A program made the position numbers and the translations under genes. Positions 3,920 through 9,515 of a stretch of 9,592 nt of DNA are shown piece by piece. A model generated the notes under the pieces. That model was not told the DNA's origin and did no database searches. It worked only from the letters and a program-made list of their open reading frames with translations. Where the stretch lies: the IMG/VR virus record IMGVR_UViG_2657245439_000005. One strand, written 5' to 3'. The stretch is from a virus. Its lineage: Duplodnaviria; Heunggongvirae; Uroviricota; Caudoviricetes. How positions within the stretch are numbered: the first letter of the stretch is position 1; every line of letters begins with the position of its first letter.

Positions 3920-4594
3920 TTAGGCCTTTATTGTGTATCTTCTTGGTTTTCCCGAGAAAATCACTGTACCAATTATAGAGCAATTACCGTTAATCTTAAT
4001 GTAAGGCTCAGGCCAGTTTGGGTTTAATGCTTTGAGATAACGCTGTGTTCCATCTTCTATCAATCGCTTGAAGGTGGTTTCGCCTGTATCGTGCATCAAT
4101 GCAATAACGTCGTCACCGTGGCAGGCAGGGACTTCGGGATCAACAAAAATCATGTCTCCAGGGCGGTACTCATCAATCATTGAATCACCAATCACCCGCA
4201 AGATATAAGTCATTTCGCCACAGGGTACAGGGCAGGGATACGTTTCTGCTGTGCTCAAATCAACCTCAGAATAGCCAACTTCTTTCCATGCTCCGGCCTG
4301 TACCCATGATATGACAGGGACTAACGTTATTTGTTTGTTAGTGATTGAAACATCAGGTTTTTTTGTGATGTTCGTTGTCTGGTGTTCTTGATCAAGCCAT
4401 CCGACAGGCAGGTCGAAACATTTTTCGATGTGCCGTGCCATGCTGTCACCGATATTTTTAGTAGCGCCATCCCCCATAAACCTGCTGGTTTGGGTTGGCT
4501 CGCGATCAATCATGGTGGCAAAGGATGAATTTCCGCCAACACCATCTCTCAGTTTTCTGGCGTTAGACCGCCGGATGTCATGGATTGTTTTCAT
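3920..4594 (-). CDS. cI: CI-type prophage repressor, HTH N-domain plus LexA-like S24 peptidase C-domain (224 aa)
   Basis: C-terminal half has the S24 autopeptidase signature (GDSM serine, downstream Lys in TFKRL) and a candidate Ala-Gly cleavage site (VQAGAW). Divergent from the cro-like gene; 224 aa as I recall for e14 CohE. Confidence 0.9.
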   Translation of the reverse strand: MKTIHDIRRSNARKLRDGVGGNSSFATMIDREPTQTSRFMGDGATKNIGDSMARHIEKCFDLPVGWLDQEHQTTNITKKPDVSITNKQITLVPVISWVQAGAWKEVGYSEVDLSTAETYPCPVPCGEMTYILRVIGDSMIDEYRPGDMIFVDPEVPACHGDDVIALMHDTGETTFKRLIEDGTQRYLKALNPNWPEPYIKINGNCSIIGTVIFSGKPRRYTIKA

Positions 4595-4600
4595 AACGAA

Positions 4601-4629
4601 ATTAAAACCTTTGTACCGATAAGGTACAA
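4601..4629 (-). promoter_or_regulatory. Candidate pRM for cI: -10 TTTAAT (plus 4601-4606) ending 6 nt before the cI ATG, with a weak -35 inside OR-a
   Basis: Minus strand reads cTTGTACcttatcggtacaaaggtTTTAATttcgttATG. This would give a near-leaderless cI mRNA, as for lambda pRM. Confidence 0.3.
4611..4629. promoter_or_regulatory. Operator OR-a, perfect palindrome TTGTACC-gataa-GGTACAA
   Basis: 19-bp perfect dyad (7-5-7) in the cI-cro intergenic region. Confidence 0.6.
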
Positions 4630-4634
4630 GTATC

Positions 4635-4662
4635 TTGAAGGTTCATTTCAATCATGTAATAT
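4635..4662 (+). promoter_or_regulatory. Candidate pR for cro: -35 TTGAAG (4635-4640), 16-bp spacer, -10 TAATAT (4657-4662)
   Basis: Hexamers read directly. The predicted start site falls inside OR-b. Confidence 0.45.
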
Positions 4663-4679
4663 GTATACCGGAGGTACAT
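4661..4679. promoter_or_regulatory. Operator OR-b, imperfect 7-5-7 dyad ATGTATA-ccgga-GGTACAT
   Basis: Shares the GGTACA(T/A) half-site with OR-a and OL. Overlaps the pR -10/start region and the cro RBS. Confidence 0.5.
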
Positions 4680-4684
4680 ATTGT

Positions 4685-4885
4685 ATGAAAGCGTATTGGG
4701 ACTCTTTAACCAAAGAACAGCAGGGCGAGTTGGCCGGAAAAGTTGGCTCAACACCTGGCTACTTACGGCTGGTTTTCAATGGTTATAAAAAAGCCAGTTT
4801 TGTGCTGGCGAAAAAACTTGAGCAATGCACGTCAGGTGCAATTACGAAATCTGACTTAAGACCGGATATCTATCCGAAAGATTAA
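4685..4885 (+). CDS. cro: Cro-like small HTH repressor (66 aa; Cro/YdaS-type)
   Basis: ATG at 4685 with GGAGG upstream. Divergent from cI across the operator region. The longer ORF from 4580 overlaps cI and is rejected. Confidence 0.8.
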   Translation: MKAYWDSLTKEQQGELAGKVGSTPGYLRLVFNGYKKASFVLAKKLEQCTSGAITKSDLRPDIYPKD

Positions 4886-4916: not shown

Positions 4917-5480
4917 ATGAGGCTAACCGTGGGTAAGTATCACTGGAAAGTAGAAAAACAGCCTGAGTGGTACGTGAAAGCTGTCAGAAAAACTATCGCA
5001 GCGTTGCCGGGTGGTTACGCTGAAGCAGCTGACTGGCTGGATGTAACAGAGAACGCATTATTTAACCGCCTTCGTGCCGATGGCGATCAGATTTTCCCGC
5101 TGGGATGGGCAATGGTTTTACAGCGCGCGGCTGGCACTCACTACATTGCGGATGCTGTCGCACAGTCTGCTGGTGGGGTGTTCGTATCGCTTCCTGAAAT
5201 TGAGGAAGTAGAGAACGCCGATATAAACCAGCGCCTGCTGGAAGTCATCGAACAGATCGGGAATTACTCAAAGCAGATTCGTTCGGCAATCGAAGATGGG
5301 GTCGTGGAGCCACACGAGCAGACAGCAATTAATGATGAGTTGTATCTGTCAATTTCGAAGCTCCAAGAGCATGCAGCACTGGTCTACAAAATCTTTTGCG
5401 CTCCAGAAAAGAGTGACGCCCGCGAGTGTGCAGCTCCGGGCGTCGTGGCGTTTTGTGTCTGTGGAGAAACTAACGCATGA
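4917..5480 (+). CDS. CII-like / YdaT-family phage regulator (187 aa), in the position of e14 ymfL
   Basis: Second gene after cro. N-terminal segment (PGGYAEAADWLDVTENALFNRLR) looks like a CII-type HTH. Family assignment is from memory. An alternative GTG start at 4929 has a better SD. Stop overlaps the next gene (ATGA at 5477-5480). Confidence 0.65.
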   Translation: MRLTVGKYHWKVEKQPEWYVKAVRKTIAALPGGYAEAADWLDVTENALFNRLRADGDQIFPLGWAMVLQRAAGTHYIADAVAQSAGGVFVSLPEIEEVENADINQRLLEVIEQIGNYSKQIRSAIEDGVVEPHEQTAINDELYLSISKLQEHAALVYKIFCAPEKSDARECAAPGVVAFCVCGETNA

Positions 5481-6313
5481 ACAGTTTAACGGCAAATAAC
5501 CGTTTGTCGCAACAGCTGGTGGTCAGTGTCGCTGAACACCTGTTGTTACGGCATGAATGCAGATTACCAAATCACCTGGCTGTAAGTAACCACAGAGAAC
5601 TTTACCTGACTGTGGGGGGCGAGTTGTGCGGGAACTTAACCGCTGGTTTCGTGACGGAAGAGGGCTTTATGTCCATGTTATTCGTTGGGAACCAGAAACA
5701 CAGCGCGTTATCTATCTTCGCAAAGACTACCCGCATGAGTGCTTTAGTCCTTTGTGGAAATTCAGGCGTGATTTTGTTGAGTGTGAAGGACCACCAGCAC
5801 ATTGATTCTGCCATTCCGGGACGTTACACTGTTCAGGCACCTTATAAAGCGGGTGACGGGATTGGCGTCCTGGAAATGTTATCGGCGATATATGACGCGC
5901 CAGCGTCTTTTTTATCGTCTGCGTCTGTGCACACCCAAATTATGGTGGGCTGGACGGGGGCACCGAAAGGTGCGCCGGTTTCCGATAACGCCGGTTACGC
6001 CAACCCCGTTCAGTTCACCACCAGCGAAATTGGCGTTTCCGGTGGTGAAGGTAATTCACTGTTATCGGAGGCTGCCATCATGGCTACTGTCCCAGCCCTC
6101 ACTCGTCTGAATGATGAAGACTTACATAAACTCAGTTATGTAACAACTGCACTACGTGCTCTGCGCAAGGTAACTCTTTCGGATCCGCAGGCGCATCAGG
6201 TTTTGGTAGAAACCCTTCTTAACTTGCAGGCTGAACGTATTCGTCTGGCGGATAAGGCTAATTTTCATATTCACCGTCTCCTGAATATCAGCGGAGGGCA
6301 TCGTCATGCTTAA
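5477..6313 (+). CDS. Hypothetical protein (278 aa), unassigned
   Basis: Long ORF coupled at both ends (ATGA at 5477; 8-nt overlap with the next gene). Weak GGAG 10 nt upstream. C-terminal half has a Gly/Ala/Pro-rich linker then a helical-looking tail. The N-terminal third is ambiguous because of a competing frame (see findings). Confidence 0.5.
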   Translation: MNSLTANNRLSQQLVVSVAEHLLLRHECRLPNHLAVSNHRELYLTVGGELCGNLTAGFVTEEGFMSMLFVGNQKHSALSIFAKTTRMSALVLCGNSGVILLSVKDHQHIDSAIPGRYTVQAPYKAGDGIGVLEMLSAIYDAPASFLSSASVHTQIMVGWTGAPKGAPVSDNAGYANPVQFTTSEIGVSGGEGNSLLSEAAIMATVPALTRLNDEDLHKLSYVTTALRALRKVTLSDPQAHQVLVETLLNLQAERIRLADKANFHIHRLLNISGGHRHA

Positions 6314-6542
6314 TCCGTTGATCCTCAATATTTGCCGTTTGCTTCAGCGTAAAAAAACATCAATTCCTACAGTTGGGCAGTGGTACACCACGCCTGCAGG
6401 GCATGTTCTACGTGTTAGCCTAGTTGACCGTGAATGTCAGAAGGTGATTTGTGAACCGCTGGGCCGTAATTACCGCATCAGTATGCCGCTTATAGCCTTT
6501 TGCTCCGGAAAAAACATGAAGCATCTCGGAGGTGCAGCATGA
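6306..6542 (+). CDS. Small hypothetical protein (78 aa)
   Basis: ATG at 6306 with GGAGGG 8 nt upstream. Stop overlaps the O-like start (ATGA at 6539-6542). No recognisable motif. Confidence 0.55.
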   Translation: MLNPLILNICRLLQRKKTSIPTVGQWYTTPAGHVLRVSLVDRECQKVICEPLGRNYRISMPLIAFCSGKNMKHLGGAA

Positions 6543-7369
6543 GTATGGAGCTGATGGTTAAAGCGATGAAAATTCGAGTGGGTAATCCATTGCGAAAACT
6601 GGTTCTGATCAAGCTGGCTGATAATGCCAGCGATCAGGGTGAGTGCTGGCCCAGCTACCAGCATATTGCTGACCAGTGCGAGATTAGCAAACGTTCTGTG
6701 ATGAATCATATTGCGGCCCTTTGTGATTCCGGGCTGGTAAAAAAAGTCACCCGGAAAGGTGAAAAAGGTAACTCAAGTAATATCTATCTCCTTCATCTTG
6801 ATGGTGCAGGAGATTCACTAGGGGGTAGTGCAAATAATTCACTATCTGGTGCAGCAAATTCACCAGGTAGTGCAGGAGTTGCACCAGGGGGTGGTGCAGG
6901 AGATTCACCCAGAACCAGTCACTCTTTTGAACCAGTCAAAGAACCAGTCAAAGAACCAGTCAATGAACCAATAGCTGTTGGTGCATCTGCTGATGAGTCT
7001 GTGCGAGTTCGTTCAAACCGACCGGAATACTCTCCGGAGTTTGAGCAGGCATGGCTGGCATACCCCAAACGTGCTGGTGGCAATTCAAAATCTGCAGCCT
7101 TCAAAGCCTGGAAAGCCCGTTTGAATGAGGGGGTAAAACCCGAAACCATGCTGGAAGGTGTGAAACGCTACGCGGGCTGGGTATCTGCGATGGGTAACAG
7201 CGGCACACAATTTGTGAAACAGGCTGTCACGTTCTTTGGTCCGGATCGTCATTTCGAAGAATCCTGGGAAGTTCCTGCGGTATCTGCAGCCAGACGCGAG
7301 GACCCGTACTTCAAAGCCAGTTACGACAACGTGGACTACAGCCAGATCCCGGCAGGATTCAGGGGGTAA
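6539..7369 (+). CDS. O-like replication initiator: N-terminal winged-helix DNA-binding domain, repeat-encoded linker, conserved C-terminal domain (276 aa)
   Basis: ATG at 6539 with GGAGG 7 nt upstream (the ORF from 6500 is an unsupported extension). N-terminus (LRKLVLIKLADNASDQGECWPSYQHIADQCEISKRSVMNHIAAL) is HTH-like. The linker is encoded by DNA iterons. C-terminal WLAYPKRAGGNSKSAAFKAWKA block is typical of phage replication organisers as I recall. Confidence 0.8.
   Translation: MSMELMVKAMKIRVGNPLRKLVLIKLADNASDQGECWPSYQHIADQCEISKRSVMNHIAALCDSGLVKKVTRKGEKGNSSNIYLLHLDGAGDSLGGSANNSLSGAANSPGSAGVAPGGGAGDSPRTSHSFEPVKEPVKEPVNEPIAVGASADESVRVRSNRPEYSPEFEQAWLAYPKRAGGNSKSAAFKAWKARLNEGVKPETMLEGVKRYAGWVSAMGNSGTQFVKQAVTFFGPDRHFEESWEVPAVSAARREDPYFKASYDNVDYSQIPAGFRG
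6802..6910. repeat. Five iteron-like direct repeats (consensus about GGT(AG)GTGCA..A.TTCAC, 21-25 bp period) inside the O-like gene; putative replication origin
   Basis: TGGTGCAGGAGATTCAC occurs exactly at 6802-6818 and 6892-6908, with three degenerate copies between. Same arrangement as lambda ori iterons inside O. Confidence 0.6.
6911..6970. repeat. Tandem 12-bp repeats GAACCAGTCA(A/C)(A/T), about 4.5 copies, adjacent to the iterons
   Basis: Read directly. Encodes EPVKEPVKEPVNEP in the O-like linker. Confidence 0.6.
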
Positions 7370-7371
7370 TC

Positions 7372-7860
7372 ATGAGTCTTTTGAATGAAGTTCAGAAATT
7401 CATTGAAGCCCATCCGGGGTGTACTTCCGCAGACATTGCGGATGCTTTTGCAGATTACTCACGGCAGCGCGTTCTGCAGTCAGCAAGCAAGTTACGTCAG
7501 AGTGGGCGTGTGGCTCACCGTTGTGAAGGAGATACACGCAGACATTTCCCGCGCCTGACTGAGAGAGCGCAAGAGCCGGAACCACAACCAGTTCGTGAAA
7601 CCAGACCTGTGCGCAATTTCTATGTCGGCACTAACGATCCCCGGGTGATTTTATGCCTGACCCGCCAGGCTGAAGAACTGGAGTCGAGGGGGTTATACCG
7701 TCGTGCTGCAACGGTGTGGATGGCGGCATTCCGTGAAAGTCACTCCCAGCCAGAACGAAACAACTTTCTGGCGCGTCGTGAGCTGTGCTTACGGAAAAGC
7801 AGCAAGCGCGCTGTATCTGGTGATGAATGGTATCTGTCAGGGAATTACGTGGGGGCTTAA
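7372..7860 (+). CDS. PerC-like (ANR-type) transcriptional regulator with an N-terminal winged-helix-like domain (162 aa)
   Basis: C-terminal AEELESRGLYRRAATVWMAAFRES matches the PerC-type motif as I recall it. ATG 3 nt after the O-like stop, with a G-rich SD. Confidence 0.65.
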   Translation: MSLLNEVQKFIEAHPGCTSADIADAFADYSRQRVLQSASKLRQSGRVAHRCEGDTRRHFPRLTERAQEPEPQPVRETRPVRNFYVGTNDPRVILCLTRQAEELESRGLYRRAATVWMAAFRESHSQPERNNFLARRELCLRKSSKRAVSGDEWYLSGNYVGA

Positions 7861-8186
7861 TGACGACGTTAACTCAATGCCAGCAGCAGGTGCTGGATAT
7901 GCTGATTTCTTACCAGCAAGAACGTGGCTTTCCGCCAACCAATCAGGAGGTGGCAACCATGCTGGGATACCGTTCGGTGAATGCAGCGGTGGAGCATCTT
8001 CGCGCACTGGAGAAAAAAGGCGTCATCACGATAAAGCGTGGCGTGGCCCGGGGGATAACGCTTCATACCGCGGTGAAGGACGACGACAGCGAGGCGGTCG
8101 GGATTATCCGCTCACTGCTTGCCGGTGAGGAAAACGCCAGGCTGTGTGCAGCCCACTGGTTACATGAGAGGGGCATGAAAGTATGA
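7860..8186 (+). CDS. LexA N-terminal DNA-binding-domain homolog lacking the S24 peptidase domain (108 aa)
   Basis: Residues about 3-70 align with the E. coli LexA N-terminal domain (LT.RQQ.V.D.I......G.PPT..E.A..LG.RS.NAA.EHL.AL..KGVI.I..G..RGI.L). Start overlaps the upstream stop (TAATG); stop overlaps the rusA start (ATGA). The ORF from 7827 is an in-frame upstream extension. Confidence 0.75.
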   Translation: MTTLTQCQQQVLDMLISYQQERGFPPTNQEVATMLGYRSVNAAVEHLRALEKKGVITIKRGVARGITLHTAVKDDDSEAVGIIRSLLAGEENARLCAAHWLHERGMKV

Positions 8187-8572
8187 AGCTGATTCTGCCT
8201 TTTCCGCCCAGCGTGAACACGTACTGGCGACATCCCAACAAAGGGGCGTTTGCAGGTAAGAGCCTGATAAGCGCGGCGGGGCGAAAATTCCAGAGCGCGG
8301 CGTGCGCAGCAATAGTTGAGCAGTTACGTCGTTTGCCGAAACCAACGTCGGCACCTGCTTCAGTGGAGATCGTGTTGTTTCCGCCGGATAACCGGATCCG
8401 CGATCTGGACAACTATAACAAGGCGCTGTTTGACGCCCTGACCCACGCGGGTGTGTGGGAAGACGACAGTCAGGTGAAAAGAATGCTGGTGGAGTGGGGA
8501 CCGGTTATCCCGGAAGGGAAGGTCGAGATCACTATCAGTAAGTACGAGAAAACGGCGGGTGCAGCCGCCTGA
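8183..8572 (+). CDS. rusA: RusA-family Holliday junction resolvase (129 aa)
   Basis: PFPPSVNTYWRH N-terminus and the acidic catalytic block RDLDNYNKALFDAL ... WEDDSQV match RusA. Typical nin-region gene. Confidence 0.85.
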   Translation: MKLILPFPPSVNTYWRHPNKGAFAGKSLISAAGRKFQSAACAAIVEQLRRLPKPTSAPASVEIVLFPPDNRIRDLDNYNKALFDALTHAGVWEDDSQVKRMLVEWGPVIPEGKVEITISKYEKTAGAAA

Positions 8573-8591
8573 TCAAGAGGAGAAACGAAGT

Positions 8592-9401
8592 ATGAATAAT
8601 CTGATGGTCATTGATGGTATTGAAGTTCGTCGTGATGCTTATGGGCGTTACAGCCTGAACGATCTGCATCGCGCAGCAGTAGCATCTGGTGCAAATGCCA
8701 GAACCAAGGAGCCAGGAAAGTTTCTTTCCAGCCAACAAACTGTTGAGCTTGTTCATGAATTGACCAACACCCAGAATTTGGGTGTTGACCCGGTGAGTGT
8801 GATTCATGGGGGAAATGAACGGGGAACGTATGTCTGCAAGGAACTGGTGTATGCCTATGCAATGTGGATCAGCCCGTCATTCCATCTGAAGGTGATCCGT
8901 ACTTTCGATATGGTAACCAGCGCACCGGAAAAATTATCCGGGCAGGCTGCTGACAAGATGCAGGCTGGAGTGATTCTGCTGGACTTTATGCGCCGGGAGT
9001 TAAACCTGTCTAACTCTTCAGTGCTTGGTGCCTGTCAGAAACTCCAGGAGGCTGTTGGCTTACCGAATCTGGCACCGCGCTATGCCATTGATGCTCCTGC
9101 TGACGCGCCTGATGGCTCAAGTCGCCCTACGCTGTCGCTGAGTGCACTGCTGAAACAGTATGGTATCCGCCTTACGGCTAATCAGGCATATCACCAGATG
9201 GCGAAGCTGGGGATCGTTGAACAACGCGAACGATACAGCCGTACCTCGATTAACAACATCAAAAAATTCTGGTCGCTGACAGCGAAAGGCTGCATGTTCG
9301 GCAAGAACATCACCAGTCCCGCAAATCCGCGCGAGACGCAGCCGCATTTCTTCGAATCCCGATTCCCTGAGCTGTTAAAGCTGCTCGATACCGTTCATTG
9401 A
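8592..9401 (+). CDS. KilA-N domain protein / antirepressor-like (269 aa)
   Basis: ATG at 8592 with AGGAG upstream (the ORF from 8559 overlaps rusA). N-terminal block (IDGIEVRRDAYGRYSLNDLHRAAVASG ... KFLSSQQTVELVHEL) is KilA-N-like. Confidence 0.75.
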   Translation: MNNLMVIDGIEVRRDAYGRYSLNDLHRAAVASGANARTKEPGKFLSSQQTVELVHELTNTQNLGVDPVSVIHGGNERGTYVCKELVYAYAMWISPSFHLKVIRTFDMVTSAPEKLSGQAADKMQAGVILLDFMRRELNLSNSSVLGACQKLQEAVGLPNLAPRYAIDAPADAPDGSSRPTLSLSALLKQYGIRLTANQAYHQMAKLGIVEQRERYSRTSINNIKKFWSLTAKGCMFGKNITSPANPRETQPHFFESRFPELLKLLDTVH

Positions 9402-9496: not shown

Positions 9497-9515
9497 CTGT
9501 CTCTTATACACAAGT
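9497..9515 (+). mobile_element. 19-mer CTGTCTCTTATACACAAGT matching the Tn5/IS50 outside-end inverted repeat at 18/19 positions; possible IS terminal repeat
   Basis: Compared with the Tn5 OE (CTGACTCTTATACACAAGT) from memory; only position 4 differs. The sequence to its right does not match the IS50 interior as I recall it. Confidence 0.3.

What the first reader, a model, noticed from the sequence alone, without database searches (positions are those of the whole stretch)
6802..6970. Putative replication origin embedded in the O-like initiator gene
Five iteron-like direct repeats (two exact 17-bp copies 90 bp apart plus three degenerate copies at roughly two-helical-turn spacing) are followed by tandem 12-bp GAACCAGTCA repeats. 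All lie in the linker-coding part of the initiator gene, the same layout as lambda ori inside O. The N-terminal winged-helix domain of the same protein is the obvious candidate to bind these iterons.
Basis: partly seen in the sequence, partly recalled or inferred. Interest (0 to 1): 0.45.

Follow-up and report, generated by a model that had tools for sequence, protein, structure and literature searches.

The report
Replication origin inside a prophage initiator gene
The repeats are real and are very probably the replication origin of this lambda-like prophage, lying inside its own initiator gene; comparison with hundreds of relatives shows phage-specific binding repeats followed by a short DNA box kept almost unchanged whatever reading frame it falls in.

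Summary
There are five 15-bp dyad-symmetric repeats, GTGCA-N5-TKCAC, at 6804-6908, spaced 24, 21, 21 and 24 nt. They are followed by four exact GAACCAGTCA boxes at 6912-6962. All lie in the disordered linker-coding part of a 276-aa HTH_36 replication initiator gene (6539-7369).

Comparative evidence supports an origin.
- In more than 200 related loci the same N-terminal winged helix is followed by 3-7 lineage-specific palindromic repeats with a 21-24 nt period.
- The repeat sequence tracks the recognition-helix sequence.
- The repeats are followed by a near-constant element, AGAAYCAGTMACTCTTTTGAAYCAGTCA.
- Third codon positions of that element are almost invariant, and it is read in at least three reading frames, so selection acts on the DNA.
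- It is a local GC trough.
- Downstream partner genes vary: lambda-P-like, DnaC-like, DnaB-like, or none, as here.

The layout works like lambda ori inside O. However, the initiator is not in the lambda O family, there is no strongly AT-rich tract, and this module has no loader gene. I found no origin annotation or description for this module (SfV, ST64B, Eru6-type Shiga-toxin phages) in the records and papers I could reach. Function has not been tested experimentally.

The parts
6539..7369 (+). Replication initiator gene (276 aa), translationally coupled to the upstream ORF by an ATGA overlap at 6539-6542
   Evidence: Translation. Pfam HTH_36 43.4 bits (cutoff 25) and weak DnaD_N. PHROG 270 replication initiation protein, E=1.7e-88. 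Called 'replication protein' in SfV orf39 and ST64B sb42.
6539..6799 (+). Coding region for the N-terminal winged-helix DNA-binding domain (aa 1-87); the proposed iteron binder
   Evidence: AlphaFold pLDDT 92-97 with topology H-H-H-H-strand-strand. Foldseek finds generic winged-helix folds, including the DnaD N-terminal domain 2v79. Recognition-helix classes track iteron classes.
6802..6818 (.). Iteron 1, TGGTGCAGGAGATTCAC (dyad core 6804-6818)
6826..6842 (.). Iteron 2, TAGTGCAAATAATTCAC (core 6828-6842)
6847..6863 (.). Iteron 3, TGGTGCAGCAAATTCAC (core 6849-6863)
6868..6884 (.). Iteron 4, TAGTGCAGGAGTTGCAC (core 6870-6884; the 5-nt arms are perfectly complementary)
6892..6908 (.). Iteron 5, TGGTGCAGGAGATTCAC (core 6894-6908); identical to iteron 1 and abuts the constant element
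6909..6938 (+). Family-wide constant element CCAGAACCAGTCACTCTTTTGAACCAGTCA, holding boxes 1 and 2 (6912-6921 and 6929-6938). The two boxes are read in two different frames (RTSH, then EPV).
   Evidence: 95-97% DNA identity in Vibrio and Stenotrophomonas phages. Present in about 70 of 80 loci chosen only by the N-terminal peptide. Third codon positions are nearly invariant. Read in other frames in L200, L198 and L328.
6941..6970 (+). Boxes 3 and 4 (6941-6950 and 6953-6962) plus a partial fifth (6965-6970); a 12-nt tandem array whose copy number varies among close relatives
   Evidence: Relatives carry 2, 3 or 4 boxes and 5 or 7 iterons.
7019..7366 (+). Coding region for the C-terminal helical domain (aa 161-276), one of at least 27 interchangeable C-terminal types. 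It ends in SQIPAGFRG, which matches the C-terminus of E. coli DnaT.
   Evidence: pLDDT 87-96 over aa 161-220, about 80-90 to aa 240, then lower. C-terminal clustering. DnaT tail match 8/9.

Best explanation
Window 6802-6970 is the vegetative replication origin of this lambdoid prophage, embedded in the linker-coding segment of its own initiator gene.

Proposed mechanism.
1. Dimers of the initiator's N-terminal winged-helix domain bind the five dyad-symmetric iterons. The iterons are two helical turns apart, so they all face the same side of the helix. Binding builds an O-some-like nucleoprotein complex. This step is inferred from anatomy and covariation.
2. The torsional stress of that complex opens the adjacent, less G+C-rich and A-skewed array of GAAYCAGTMA boxes (6909-6970). 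The array takes the position of lambda's AT-rich tract. This step is inferred from position, the GC trough and DNA-level conservation.
3. The C-terminal domain brings in the replicative helicase. This module encodes no loader, so it would have to use the host DnaB-DnaC, possibly through its DnaT-like SQIPAGFRG tail. This step is speculative.
4. Rightward transcription from the immunity region runs through the origin, as in lambda. This is inferred from gene order.

What recognises the constant boxes is unknown. They stay the same while the recognition helix, the C-terminal domain and the partner gene all vary.
For: Anatomy.
- Five exact dyad repeats with a 21-24 nt period are followed by four exact 10-mers. 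All lie in the disordered linker of an HTH_36 initiator.

Family evidence for the iterons.
- 125 of 125 occurrences of the constant element in viral contigs, the window and earlier loci lie in the same frame of a roughly 295-aa rep ORF. Among 117 of these with enough flank there are 32 different upstream repeat families.
- Among 124 distinct loci, the 110 nt before the element hold 5.0 perfect 5+5 dyads against 0.5 in shuffles. The best self-similarity period is 21-24 nt in 110 of 124.
- Recognition-helix classes map onto iteron classes: S[KR]RSV[MI]NHI with GTGCA..TKCAC; SKSAVRxHID with ATGCC..GGCA; RSTVKxHIR with GGGGCAGGAGCTGCCCC; DRSTVRKHIK with TGTAGGCCC..; D[KR]RTAMRHI with AGTGAY..GTCAC.

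Family evidence for the constant element.
- In 58 loci picked only by N-terminal peptides, identity to the majority base by codon position is 0.91/0.94/0.61 in the N-terminal domain and 0.91/0.90/0.88 in the element. The variable columns of the element are non-synonymous (T/I, H/N).
- The same DNA is translated as PRTSHSFEPV, PEPVTLEPV, RTSHRTSQLEPV or ESVTLLNQS in different members.
- The element is the GC minimum of the 800-nt region in high-GC members: 0.41-0.45 against 0.49-0.64.
- In a member with a P22-type C-terminal domain, the boxes sit between the iterons and a C5/G5 palindrome. P22's annotated origin has its A-rich tract in that position.

Context and breadth.
- Relatives are followed by lambda-P-type, DnaC/IstB-type or DnaB-type genes, that is, canonical replication modules.
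- The same layout recurs in distant HTH_36 phage proteins of Thermus, Arthrobacter, Bifidobacterium, Rhizobium and Pseudomonas.
Against: - There is no experimental evidence of any kind.
- The stretch next to the iterons is only moderately A+T-rich (GC 0.40-0.45), unlike lambda's tract. The lowest GC in the gene (0.30) lies just left of the iterons.
- There is no DnaA box nearby.
- There is no helicase-loader or helicase gene in this module; the next genes are PerC-like, a LexA-DNA-binding-domain protein and RusA.
- In this window the iteron spacings are all multiples of 3. From the window alone, a peptide repeat could not be excluded.
- Iteron/recognition-helix covariation involves sequences about 150 bp apart, so shared ancestry contributes to it. 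I did not correct for phylogeny.
- A loose pattern, (GAACC-N7)x3, is not specific to such genes: only 5 of 116 new viral hits had an upstream HTH_36 domain.
Confidence: 0.8

Rival explanations
1. The repeats are only a by-product of a low-complexity, slippage-prone linker (Gly/Ser/Ala-rich, then EPVK repeats) and have no function as DNA.
For: - The segment encodes a disordered linker.
- Copy number varies among close relatives by whole in-frame units.
- In this window all iteron spacings are multiples of three.
Against: - Every repeat unit has internal dyad symmetry, which a peptide repeat does not require.
- Unrelated repeat sequences occupy the same place in 32 or more lineages, each homogeneous within its gene.
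- In phage MD8 the repeats are mostly 17 nt apart and are read in three frames.
- The box element keeps its third codon positions while amino acids change, and it is read in at least three frames.
Confidence: 0.04
2. The iterons are genuine binding sites of the initiator but serve autoregulation, copy control or exclusion of related phages, while initiation starts somewhere else in the phage genome.
For: - Iterons in plasmids and in lambda also mediate control and inhibition phenotypes. This is established knowledge; the abstract of PMC3349717 (listed) describes a lambda replication-region-mediated inhibition phenotype, and I did not read the paper.
- No strongly AT-rich unwinding element is adjacent.
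- Only 9.6 kb of the phage is visible.
Against: - The window has no other repeat cluster.
- The position and order match the annotated origins of lambda and P22.
- A DNA-level conserved, relatively A+T-rich element directly abuts the last iteron in the whole family. An operator role would not need this.
Confidence: 0.1
3. The constant GAAYCAGTMA element is kept mainly as a homology patch, a module junction that lets N-terminal-plus-iteron cassettes recombine with different C-terminal domains. It is not part of the initiation mechanism.
For: - The element sits exactly at the mosaic boundary. At least 27 C-terminal domain types follow the same chassis.
- BLAST matches to distant phages stop at its edges.
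Against: - A junction does not need tandem copies, a fixed distance to the last iteron, or a GC trough.
- Box-like GAACC repeats with an 11-13 nt period occur in Actinobacteria, Thermus and alphaproteobacterial phages, whose sequences are too different to recombine with these.
- Both roles could coexist.
Confidence: 0.1

Closest known systems
ori-lambda inside gene O (also 933W and P27 Stx phages)
   Same: - The origin lies in the middle of the initiator gene.
- It has 4-6 iterons of 18-19 bp with imperfect dyad symmetry about two turns apart (lambda starts 20, 24 and 23 nt apart; here 24, 21, 21, 24).
- The iterons are followed, on the promoter-distal side, by an A-skewed, less stable stretch.
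- An N-terminal DNA-binding domain and a C-terminal partner-binding domain are joined by a linker encoded by the origin (PMC7466680).
   Different: - The initiator's N-terminus is HTH_36, not Phage_rep_O.
- Lambda's roughly 40-bp strongly AT-rich tract is replaced by tandem GAAYCAGTMA boxes at about 42% GC, which are conserved as sequence across hosts.
- No P gene follows in this module.
ori of Salmonella phage P22 inside gene 18 (with DnaB-like gene 12)
   Same: - It is an annotated in-gene origin with palindromic iterons (TTTACCGAATCGGTAAA), then an A-rich tract and a C5/G5 palindrome.
- HTH_36 family members such as Stenotrophomonas phage BUCT709 carry the P22-type C-terminal domain, the palindrome and a DnaB-like helicase gene.
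   Different: - P22 gp18 has a Phage_rep_O N-terminus.
- P22 has an A-rich tract where this family has the boxes.
- P22's last iteron happens to read GAATCAGTCA, but there it is a degenerate iteron half.
Eru6-type replication region of Shiga-toxin phages (Fagerlund et al. 2022, PMC8951638)
   Same: - The window's N-terminal domain is 97.7% identical to that of Stx2a_WGPS2, the Eru6 representative.
- An Ash-domain protein lies upstream and an HTH_36 protein follows. The paper lists HTH_36 proteins in Eru5, 6, 8, 11 and 13.
   Different: The paper classifies gene content only. It states there is no knowledge about the replication proteins of Eru phages, and it mentions neither an origin nor iterons.
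Iteron plasmid origins (RK2, F, pPS10, R6K)
   Same: - Repeated initiator-binding sites lie next to an unwinding element that itself contains short conserved repeats (13-mers).
- Plasmid Rep proteins are reported to bind one strand of those repeats. Both points are from my own knowledge and were not checked here.
   Different: - Plasmid iterons are direct, non-palindromic, bound by monomers and lie outside rep.
- DnaA boxes are typical there and absent here.
- Rep_3-type proteins were not matched.
Bacillus phage SPP1 G38P / oriL; DnaD-like replisome organisers
   Same: - An origin-binding initiator whose binding sites lie within its own gene (from my own knowledge).
- There is a weak DnaD_N match (23 bits, below the 27-bit cutoff) and a structural resemblance to the DnaD N-terminal domain.
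   Different: No significant sequence relationship was shown, and the repeat organisation was not compared here.

Membership tests
Lambda-type origin embedded in the initiator gene (layout class) | Lies inside the initiator ORF, between the DNA-binding and partner-binding domains | tested here: met
   Repeats at aa 89-144 of a 276-aa protein, between the winged helix (aa 1-87) and the C-terminal domain (aa 161-250).
Lambda-type origin embedded in the initiator gene (layout class) | Three or more iterons of about 15-19 bp, each with dyad symmetry, about two helical turns apart | tested here: met
   Five copies of GTGCA-N5-TKCAC at spacings 24, 21, 21, 24. Lambda's annotated iterons are 20, 24 and 23 nt apart.
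Lambda-type origin embedded in the initiator gene (layout class) | Strongly A+T-rich unwinding tract next to the promoter-distal iteron | tested here: inconclusive
   GC is 0.40-0.45 with AT skew +0.39 to +0.42 at 6900-6979. This is a family-wide local GC trough, but by my reading it is far less A+T-rich than lambda's tract.
Lambda-type origin embedded in the initiator gene (layout class) | Initiator-dependent autonomous replication of the fragment | not testable with these tools
   Needs cloning, origin mapping or in vitro replication.
Lambda O / P22 gp18 protein family (Pfam Phage_rep_O) | N-terminal domain matches PF04492 | tested here: not met
   No Phage_rep_O hit at E<=0.01. Lambda O and P22 gp18 both hit it at about 1e-36 to 1e-38. 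hhalign of the N-terminal alignment against lambda O and gp18 gives probability 2-3%.
Lambda O / P22 gp18 protein family (Pfam Phage_rep_O) | Followed by a helicase-loader (P) or helicase (gene 12) gene | tested here: not met
   The next genes are PerC-like, a LexA DNA-binding-domain protein and RusA. Relatives with other C-terminal domains do have lambda-P, DnaC-like or DnaB-like genes.
HTH_36-type phage replication initiators (PHROG 270 / 'replication initiation O-like') | HTH_36 domain above the Pfam gathering score, plus a match to the phage initiator PHROG | tested here: met
   PF13730 43.4 bits against 25. phrog_270 E=1.7e-88, phrog_8540 E=3.6e-61.
Eru6-type Stx-phage replication region | Same HTH_36 protein as the representative Stx2a_WGPS2, with an Ash-domain protein upstream | tested here: met
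   97.7% identity over aa 1-87 to NC_049941.1. Phage_ASH domain in ORF 5477-6313. The representative is named in PMC8951638 Table 1.
Iteron-plasmid oriV | Direct non-palindromic iterons outside rep, DnaA box(es), Rep_3-type initiator | tested here: not met
   The iterons are palindromic and intragenic. The only DnaA-box-like match is at 9504. No Rep_3 match.

The most novel reading that the evidence does not exclude
The GAAYCAGTMA boxes (more loosely, GAACC-N6-7 repeats) are a dedicated, sequence-specific unwinding or helicase-entry element. It would be shared by the origins of a very large family of HTH_36 phage initiators across Gammaproteobacteria and, in diverged form, Actinobacteria, Thermus and Alphaproteobacteria.

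It would be recognised by something common to all of them: a conserved surface of the initiator acting on single-stranded DNA, or a universal host replisome component. It would be independent of the iteron specificity, the C-terminal domain and the helicase-loading route.

That would make it a second, invariant origin code next to the variable iterons, and a one-line predictor of origins in thousands of prophages.
Probability: 0.35. Interest if true: 0.72.

Novelty: new variant of a known kind. Interest (0 to 1): 0.55.

Why it matters
- Prevalence. This origin type sits in prophages of 926 of 5,426 complete E. coli genomes, where the gene is labelled only 'helix-turn-helix domain-containing protein'.
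- Medical relevance. It also occurs in SfV, ST64B, mEp460 and Eru5/Eru6-type Shiga-toxin phages. Toxin output from those phages depends on phage replication, and the literature I could read says nothing is known about how they replicate.
- Testable predictions. The analysis gives base-pair positions for the origin, the initiator-binding code and a conserved element whose partner is unknown.
- Family size. The N-terminal domain family has 7,118 clusters at 50% identity with E<=1e-3 and 790 with E<=1e-10. A rule of 'palindromic repeats plus GAACC boxes after the winged helix' could therefore annotate many phage origins.
- Natural specificity swaps. The family offers matched recognition-helix and iteron pairs for studying how initiator specificity evolves.
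- A general caution. This is a clear case of DNA-level selection inside a protein-coding region, and it explains odd conserved 'peptides' such as RTSHSFEPV and NQSLNQS.

Tried and rejected
- RNA element. Rfam finds nothing credible at the repeats, only mir-875 at E=0.49. The boxes are direct repeats, not inverted ones, so I rejected an RNA element.
- Conserved peptide motif as the reason for conservation. Rejected on codon-position variation and use of several reading frames.
- DnaA-dependent origin. There is no DnaA box near the repeats.
- Literature. A full-text search for GAACCAGTCA returned only unrelated primer matches. Searches combining HTH_36, iterons, SfV, ST64B and 'initiator-solo' found no description. 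The SfV genome paper is not held. I recall that Weigel and Seitz 2006 (FEMS Microbiol Rev) classified 'initiator-solo' modules, but I could not check this.
- Loose pattern (GAACC-N7)x3 in viral contigs. It is not specific: 5 of 116 new hits have an upstream HTH_36 domain. The claim therefore runs only from gene to boxes.
- P22 as independent support for the box. Its GAATCAGTCA is a degenerate iteron half, so I rejected it as evidence. I kept only the positional comparison.
- Search for distant loci with a 5-sequence alignment. It failed because no conserved stretch was long enough.
- Structure. PDB sequence search found nothing. Fold search gave only generic winged-helix hits and nothing for the C-terminal domain.
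- The search for homologous proteins returned mostly truncated 'partial' proteins. They were useful only as alignment rows.
Full report
**1. Setting**

The window is the early-right region of a lambdoid prophage of Enterobacteriaceae.

| Coordinates | Feature |
|---|---|
| 3920-4594 (-) | S24 CI-like repressor |
| within ORF 4580-4885 | small cro-like gene |
| 4917-5480 | CII/CP76 protein |
| 5477-6313 | Ash-domain ORF |
| 6306-6542 | 78-aa ORF |
| 6539-7369 | 276-aa gene that holds the finding |
| 7372-7860 | PerC-like protein |
| 7827-8186 | protein with only a LexA DNA-binding domain |
| 8183-8572 | RusA |
| 8559-9401 | KilA-N protein |

Near-identical modules occur in SfV (orf39, 'replication protein'), mEp460, 2H10, 1720a-02, Stx2c phages and Stx2a_WGPS2. 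More diverged copies are in cdtI (91%) and ST64B (88%). Stx2a_WGPS2 is the representative of the 'Eru6' replication type of Shiga-toxin phages.

**2. The observation**

It is correct in every detail.
- The 17-mer TGGTGCAGGAGATTCAC occurs at 6802 and 6892.
- The 15-bp pattern GTGCA-N5-TKCAC matches exactly five times, at 6804, 6828, 6849, 6870 and 6894, and nowhere else. With one mismatch allowed on both strands there are 13 hits against 1.84 expected, and none of 200 shuffles reach that number.
- Each unit is an imperfect palindrome.
- GAACCAGTCA occurs exactly four times, at 6912, 6929, 6941 and 6953, with a partial fifth copy.
- The gene starts at the ATG at 6539, preceded by GGAGG and overlapping the upstream stop as ATGA.
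- An AlphaFold model built on a 50-row alignment gives a confident winged helix (aa 1-87, pLDDT above 90), a disordered linker (aa 91-160, pLDDT 43-54) and a helical C-terminal domain (aa 161-250). The repeats encode aa 89-144, so they lie wholly in the linker.

**3. What the gene is**

- Pfam HTH_36 scores 43 bits against a 25-bit cutoff, with DnaD_N just below its cutoff.
- PHROG 270 'replication initiation protein' matches at E=1.7e-88. The N-terminal half matches 'replication initiation O-like' PHROGs, and the C-terminal half matches the C-terminal part of a PHROG labelled 'DnaD-like helicase loader'.
- It is not a lambda O homologue. There is no Phage_rep_O match, whereas lambda O and P22 gp18 both hit that family at about 1e-36 to 1e-38. 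hhalign gives 2-3% probability.
- No solved structure matches by sequence. Fold search returns only generic winged-helix proteins, including the DnaD N-terminal domain.

**4. The unexpected lead**

A sensitive BLASTN of the gene against phage genomes found a roughly 40-nt piece (window about 6905-6945) at 95-97% identity in Vibrio and Stenotrophomonas phages. The rest of their gene is far more diverged.

Reading those genes, and others from Pseudomonas, Klebsiella, Thermus and the Stx phage 24B, showed one common plan:
1. a conserved N-terminal winged helix;
2. 3-7 copies of a lineage-specific palindromic repeat with a 21-24 nt period;
3. an almost constant sequence, CCAGAACCAGTCACTCTTTTGAACCAGTCA.

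Examples of the lineage-specific repeats:

| Phage | Repeat | Copies |
|---|---|---|
| Vibrio D67 | AGTGAC-N5-GTCAC | 3 |
| Stenotrophomonas BUCT709 | CTATGCCGCC-N5-GCATAG | 4 |
| Stx phage 24B | GGGGCAGGAGCTGCCCC | 3 |
| Thermus Riverbug | GGTGAAC-N5-TTCACC | 7 |

**5. Size and consistency of the pattern**

- *DNA scan.* I scanned viral contigs for the constant element. Together with the window and earlier loci this gave 125 occurrences, every one in the same frame of a roughly 295-aa ORF. Among the 117 with enough flanking sequence there are 32 distinct upstream repeat families.
- *Unbiased sample.* I searched one genome per species using only two N-terminal peptide patterns (GECWPSYQ and KLVLIKLAD). 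The best 80 of 262 confirmed loci were kept. They are prophages of Pseudomonas, Shewanella, Aeromonas, Xenorhabdus, Marinomonas, Enterobacter and others.
- *Element presence.* About 70 of the 80 carry the element with at most 5 mismatches at the same place. Most of the remaining loci that I read carry the same 10-mers with altered spacing.
- *Dyads and period.* Over 124 distinct loci, the 110 nt before the element contain 5.0 perfect 5+5 dyads on average against 0.5 after shuffling. The best self-similarity period is 21-24 nt in 110 of them.
- *Family size.* The N-terminal domain family is large: 7,118 clusters at 50% identity with E<=1e-3 and 790 with E<=1e-10.

**6. Selection acts on the DNA, not the peptide**

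- *Codon positions.* In 58 loci of the unbiased sample, identity to the majority base by codon position is 0.91/0.94/0.61 in the N-terminal domain, the usual signature of a protein under purifying selection. In the constant element it is 0.91/0.90/0.88. Third positions within the first 30 nt are 0.86-1.00 and mostly at or near 1.0. The variable columns are first or second positions that change the amino acid (C/T giving T/I, C/A giving H/N).
- *Frames within this window.* The first box is read as R-T-S-H and the next ones as E-P-V, because the spacing of 17 nt is not a multiple of three.
- *Frames in other members.* The same DNA gives PEPVTLEPV (spacing 15), RTSHRTSQLEPV (spacing 13 and 15) or ESVTLLNQSMNQS. 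I verified the last on DNA: locus L328 reads GATCACCCGAATCAGTCACTCTTTTGAATCAGTCAATGAACCAGTCA.
- *Consensus.* The box consensus is GAAYCAGTMA.
- *Representatives.* 111 of 122 full-length representative proteins show the RTSH or EPV peptides. Several of the remaining 11 show the NQS-frame version.

**7. Iterons track the recognition helix**

Tabulating the helix after CWPSY against the iteron next to the constant element gives consistent classes.

| Recognition helix | Iteron |
|---|---|
| S[KR]RSV[MI]NHI | GTGCA/GTGAA-N5-TKCAC (this window) |
| SK[ST]AVRxHID | ATGCCr...GGCA |
| [GS]RSTVKxHIR | GGGGCAGGAGCTGCCCC |
| DRSTVR[KR]HIK | TGTAGGCCCAGAAAGCAC |
| D[KR]RTAMRHI | AGTGAY-N5-GTCAC |

Within a gene the copies stay alike while they differ completely between classes. 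That is the behaviour expected of sites read by one protein.

Caveat: helix and iterons are about 150 bp apart, so co-inheritance contributes to the association. I did not correct for phylogeny.

**8. These are replication modules**

- The chassis carries at least 27 different C-terminal domains.
- The gene after it matches the C-terminal type. I found lambda-P-type loaders for five types, IstB/DnaC-type ATPases for two, and DnaB-like helicases for the P22-gp18-like type.
- One type has a lambda-O-like C-terminal domain (compare).
- The window's type (52 loci) has no loader. A PerC-like or dam gene follows it.
- Its last nine residues, SQIPAGFRG, match the C-terminus of E. coli DnaT, SQIPPGFRG, at 8 of 9 positions. 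dnaT lies directly upstream of dnaC.
- The one phage type I checked that shares the IPAGFRG tail is followed by a DnaC-like gene.
- This suggests, weakly, that the tail contacts DnaC and that this 'solo' initiator borrows the host loader.

**9. What the boxes might be**

- They abut the last, usually most symmetric and G+C-rich, iteron at a fixed distance.
- They form the GC minimum of the surrounding 800 nt in high-GC members: 0.41-0.45 against 0.49-0.64. They are A-skewed on the top strand, as the lambda tract appears to be from the sequence read.
- In BUCT709 they sit between the iterons and a CCCCC..GGGGG palindrome. P22's annotated origin has its A-rich tract in exactly that position.
- I therefore read them as the unwinding or helicase-entry element.
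- Their sequence stays constant while the recognition helix, C-terminal domain and partner all vary. That argues for a common reader, either a conserved feature of the initiator acting on opened DNA or a host component. I could not identify it.
- A diverged version, GAACC plus 6-7 nt repeated 2-4 times at 11-13 nt, follows lineage-specific repeats in distant HTH_36 phage proteins:
  - Arthrobacter phage Jamun;
  - Rhizobium phage PPF1;
  - Bifidobacterium phage PMBT6;
  - Pseudomonas phage MD8, whose repeats are mostly 17 nt apart and read in three frames;
  - Thermus phage Riverbug;
  - the viral contig L230.
- The reverse does not hold. The loose pattern (GAACC-N7)x3 is mostly found elsewhere: only 5 of 116 new hits had the domain upstream.

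**10. Comparison with what is known**

- The logic is that of ori-lambda and ori-P22: an origin inside the initiator gene, palindromic iterons about two turns apart, and an opening region on the promoter-distal side (PMC7466680).
- Membership in the lambda O family fails on the N-terminal domain and on the partner gene. The strongly AT-rich tract is replaced by the boxes.
- The GenBank records of SfV and ST64B annotate no origin.
- The two Eru papers do not mention iterons or an origin, and one says nothing is known about Eru replication proteins.
- My text searches found no description. Older subscription reviews could not be read, so prior description cannot be excluded.

**11. Population facts**

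- This exact origin type occurs in 926 of 5,426 complete E. coli genomes.
- Close relatives differ by whole units. Iterons number 5 or 7 and boxes 2, 3 or 4; the window's four boxes are the less common state.

**12. Verdict**

- The interpretation as an origin is supported at about 0.8 confidence by comparative evidence and remains untested experimentally.
- I call it a new variant of a known kind: lambda-type logic on a non-homologous initiator family, with a sequence-conserved box array in place of the AT-rich tract.
- The role of the boxes (about 0.45) and the DnaT-like tail hypothesis (lower) are inferences.

Noticed in passing
window 5837-5913 and 5938-6025 (+), inside ORF 5477-6313: Rfam finds an isrK Hfq-binding RNA (55 bits, cutoff 50) and a C4 antisense RNA (83 bits, cutoff 45) back to back. 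Both lie inside the ORF whose product matches Pfam Phage_ASH (aa 117-210, about nt 5825-6106). The 'Ash' protein match overlaps two RNA genes, which suggests a P1/P7-like c4 or isrK-type immunity/antirepressor control region.
   Followed up: no
window 7340-7366 (aa 268-276): The initiator ends in SQIPAGFRG, matching 8 of 9 residues at the extreme C-terminus of E. coli DnaT (SQIPPGFRG). dnaT lies directly upstream of dnaC. A related phage initiator with the same tail (L128) is followed by a DnaC/IstB-like gene. This may be a shared loader-binding tail.
   Followed up: partly
window 6802-6970, seen in protein database hits: A large share of database proteins for this gene are 'partial' fragments that stop in or near the repeat region. 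Some of these clusters have hundreds of members. Short-read assemblies appear to break at the iteron/box array.
   Followed up: no
L330 341-485 (P22 rep_origin) and L332-L411: P22-type origins use the palindrome TTTACCGAATCGGTAAA. The last, degenerate copy reads GAATCAGTCA, identical to a variant of this family's constant box. The box resembles the right half of a P22 iteron at 8 of 10 positions. Whether this is coincidence or common ancestry is unresolved.
   Followed up: partly
L002 about 2530-2570; also L018, L076 and L165 (downstream of the boxes): Several family members carry a CCCCC(T)..CCCCC..GGGGG inverted repeat some 20-40 nt after the boxes, like the palindrome in P22's annotated origin. 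The window itself has none.
   Followed up: no
L211 1699-1849 (Pseudomonas phage MD8 rep gene): Seven copies of CCCCCGCAGnAAATGCACC lie mostly 17 nt apart, so the same DNA repeat is translated in three different frames (PPQEMHP, SSKCTP, PAANAP). This is a clear case of a DNA repeat inside a coding region.
   Followed up: partly
window 7827-8186 (+): A 119-aa protein consists only of a LexA DNA-binding domain (PF01726, E=3e-19) and has no S24 peptidase domain. Its start overlaps the end of the PerC-like gene. It could be a non-cleavable LexA-like regulator.
   Followed up: no
window 6306-6542 (+): A 78-aa ORF of unknown function (phrog_1153, E=6e-42; SfV orf38) is translationally coupled to the initiator through an ATGA overlap at 6539-6542.
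   Followed up: no
window 6760-6799: The lowest G+C of the initiator gene (0.30) lies immediately left of iteron 1, in the codons for the conserved wing (GNSSNIYLLHL). This trough is pronounced in low-GC relatives (0.34) and only slight in high-GC ones (0.49), so I did not treat it as the unwinding element. It remains an alternative site.
   Followed up: partly
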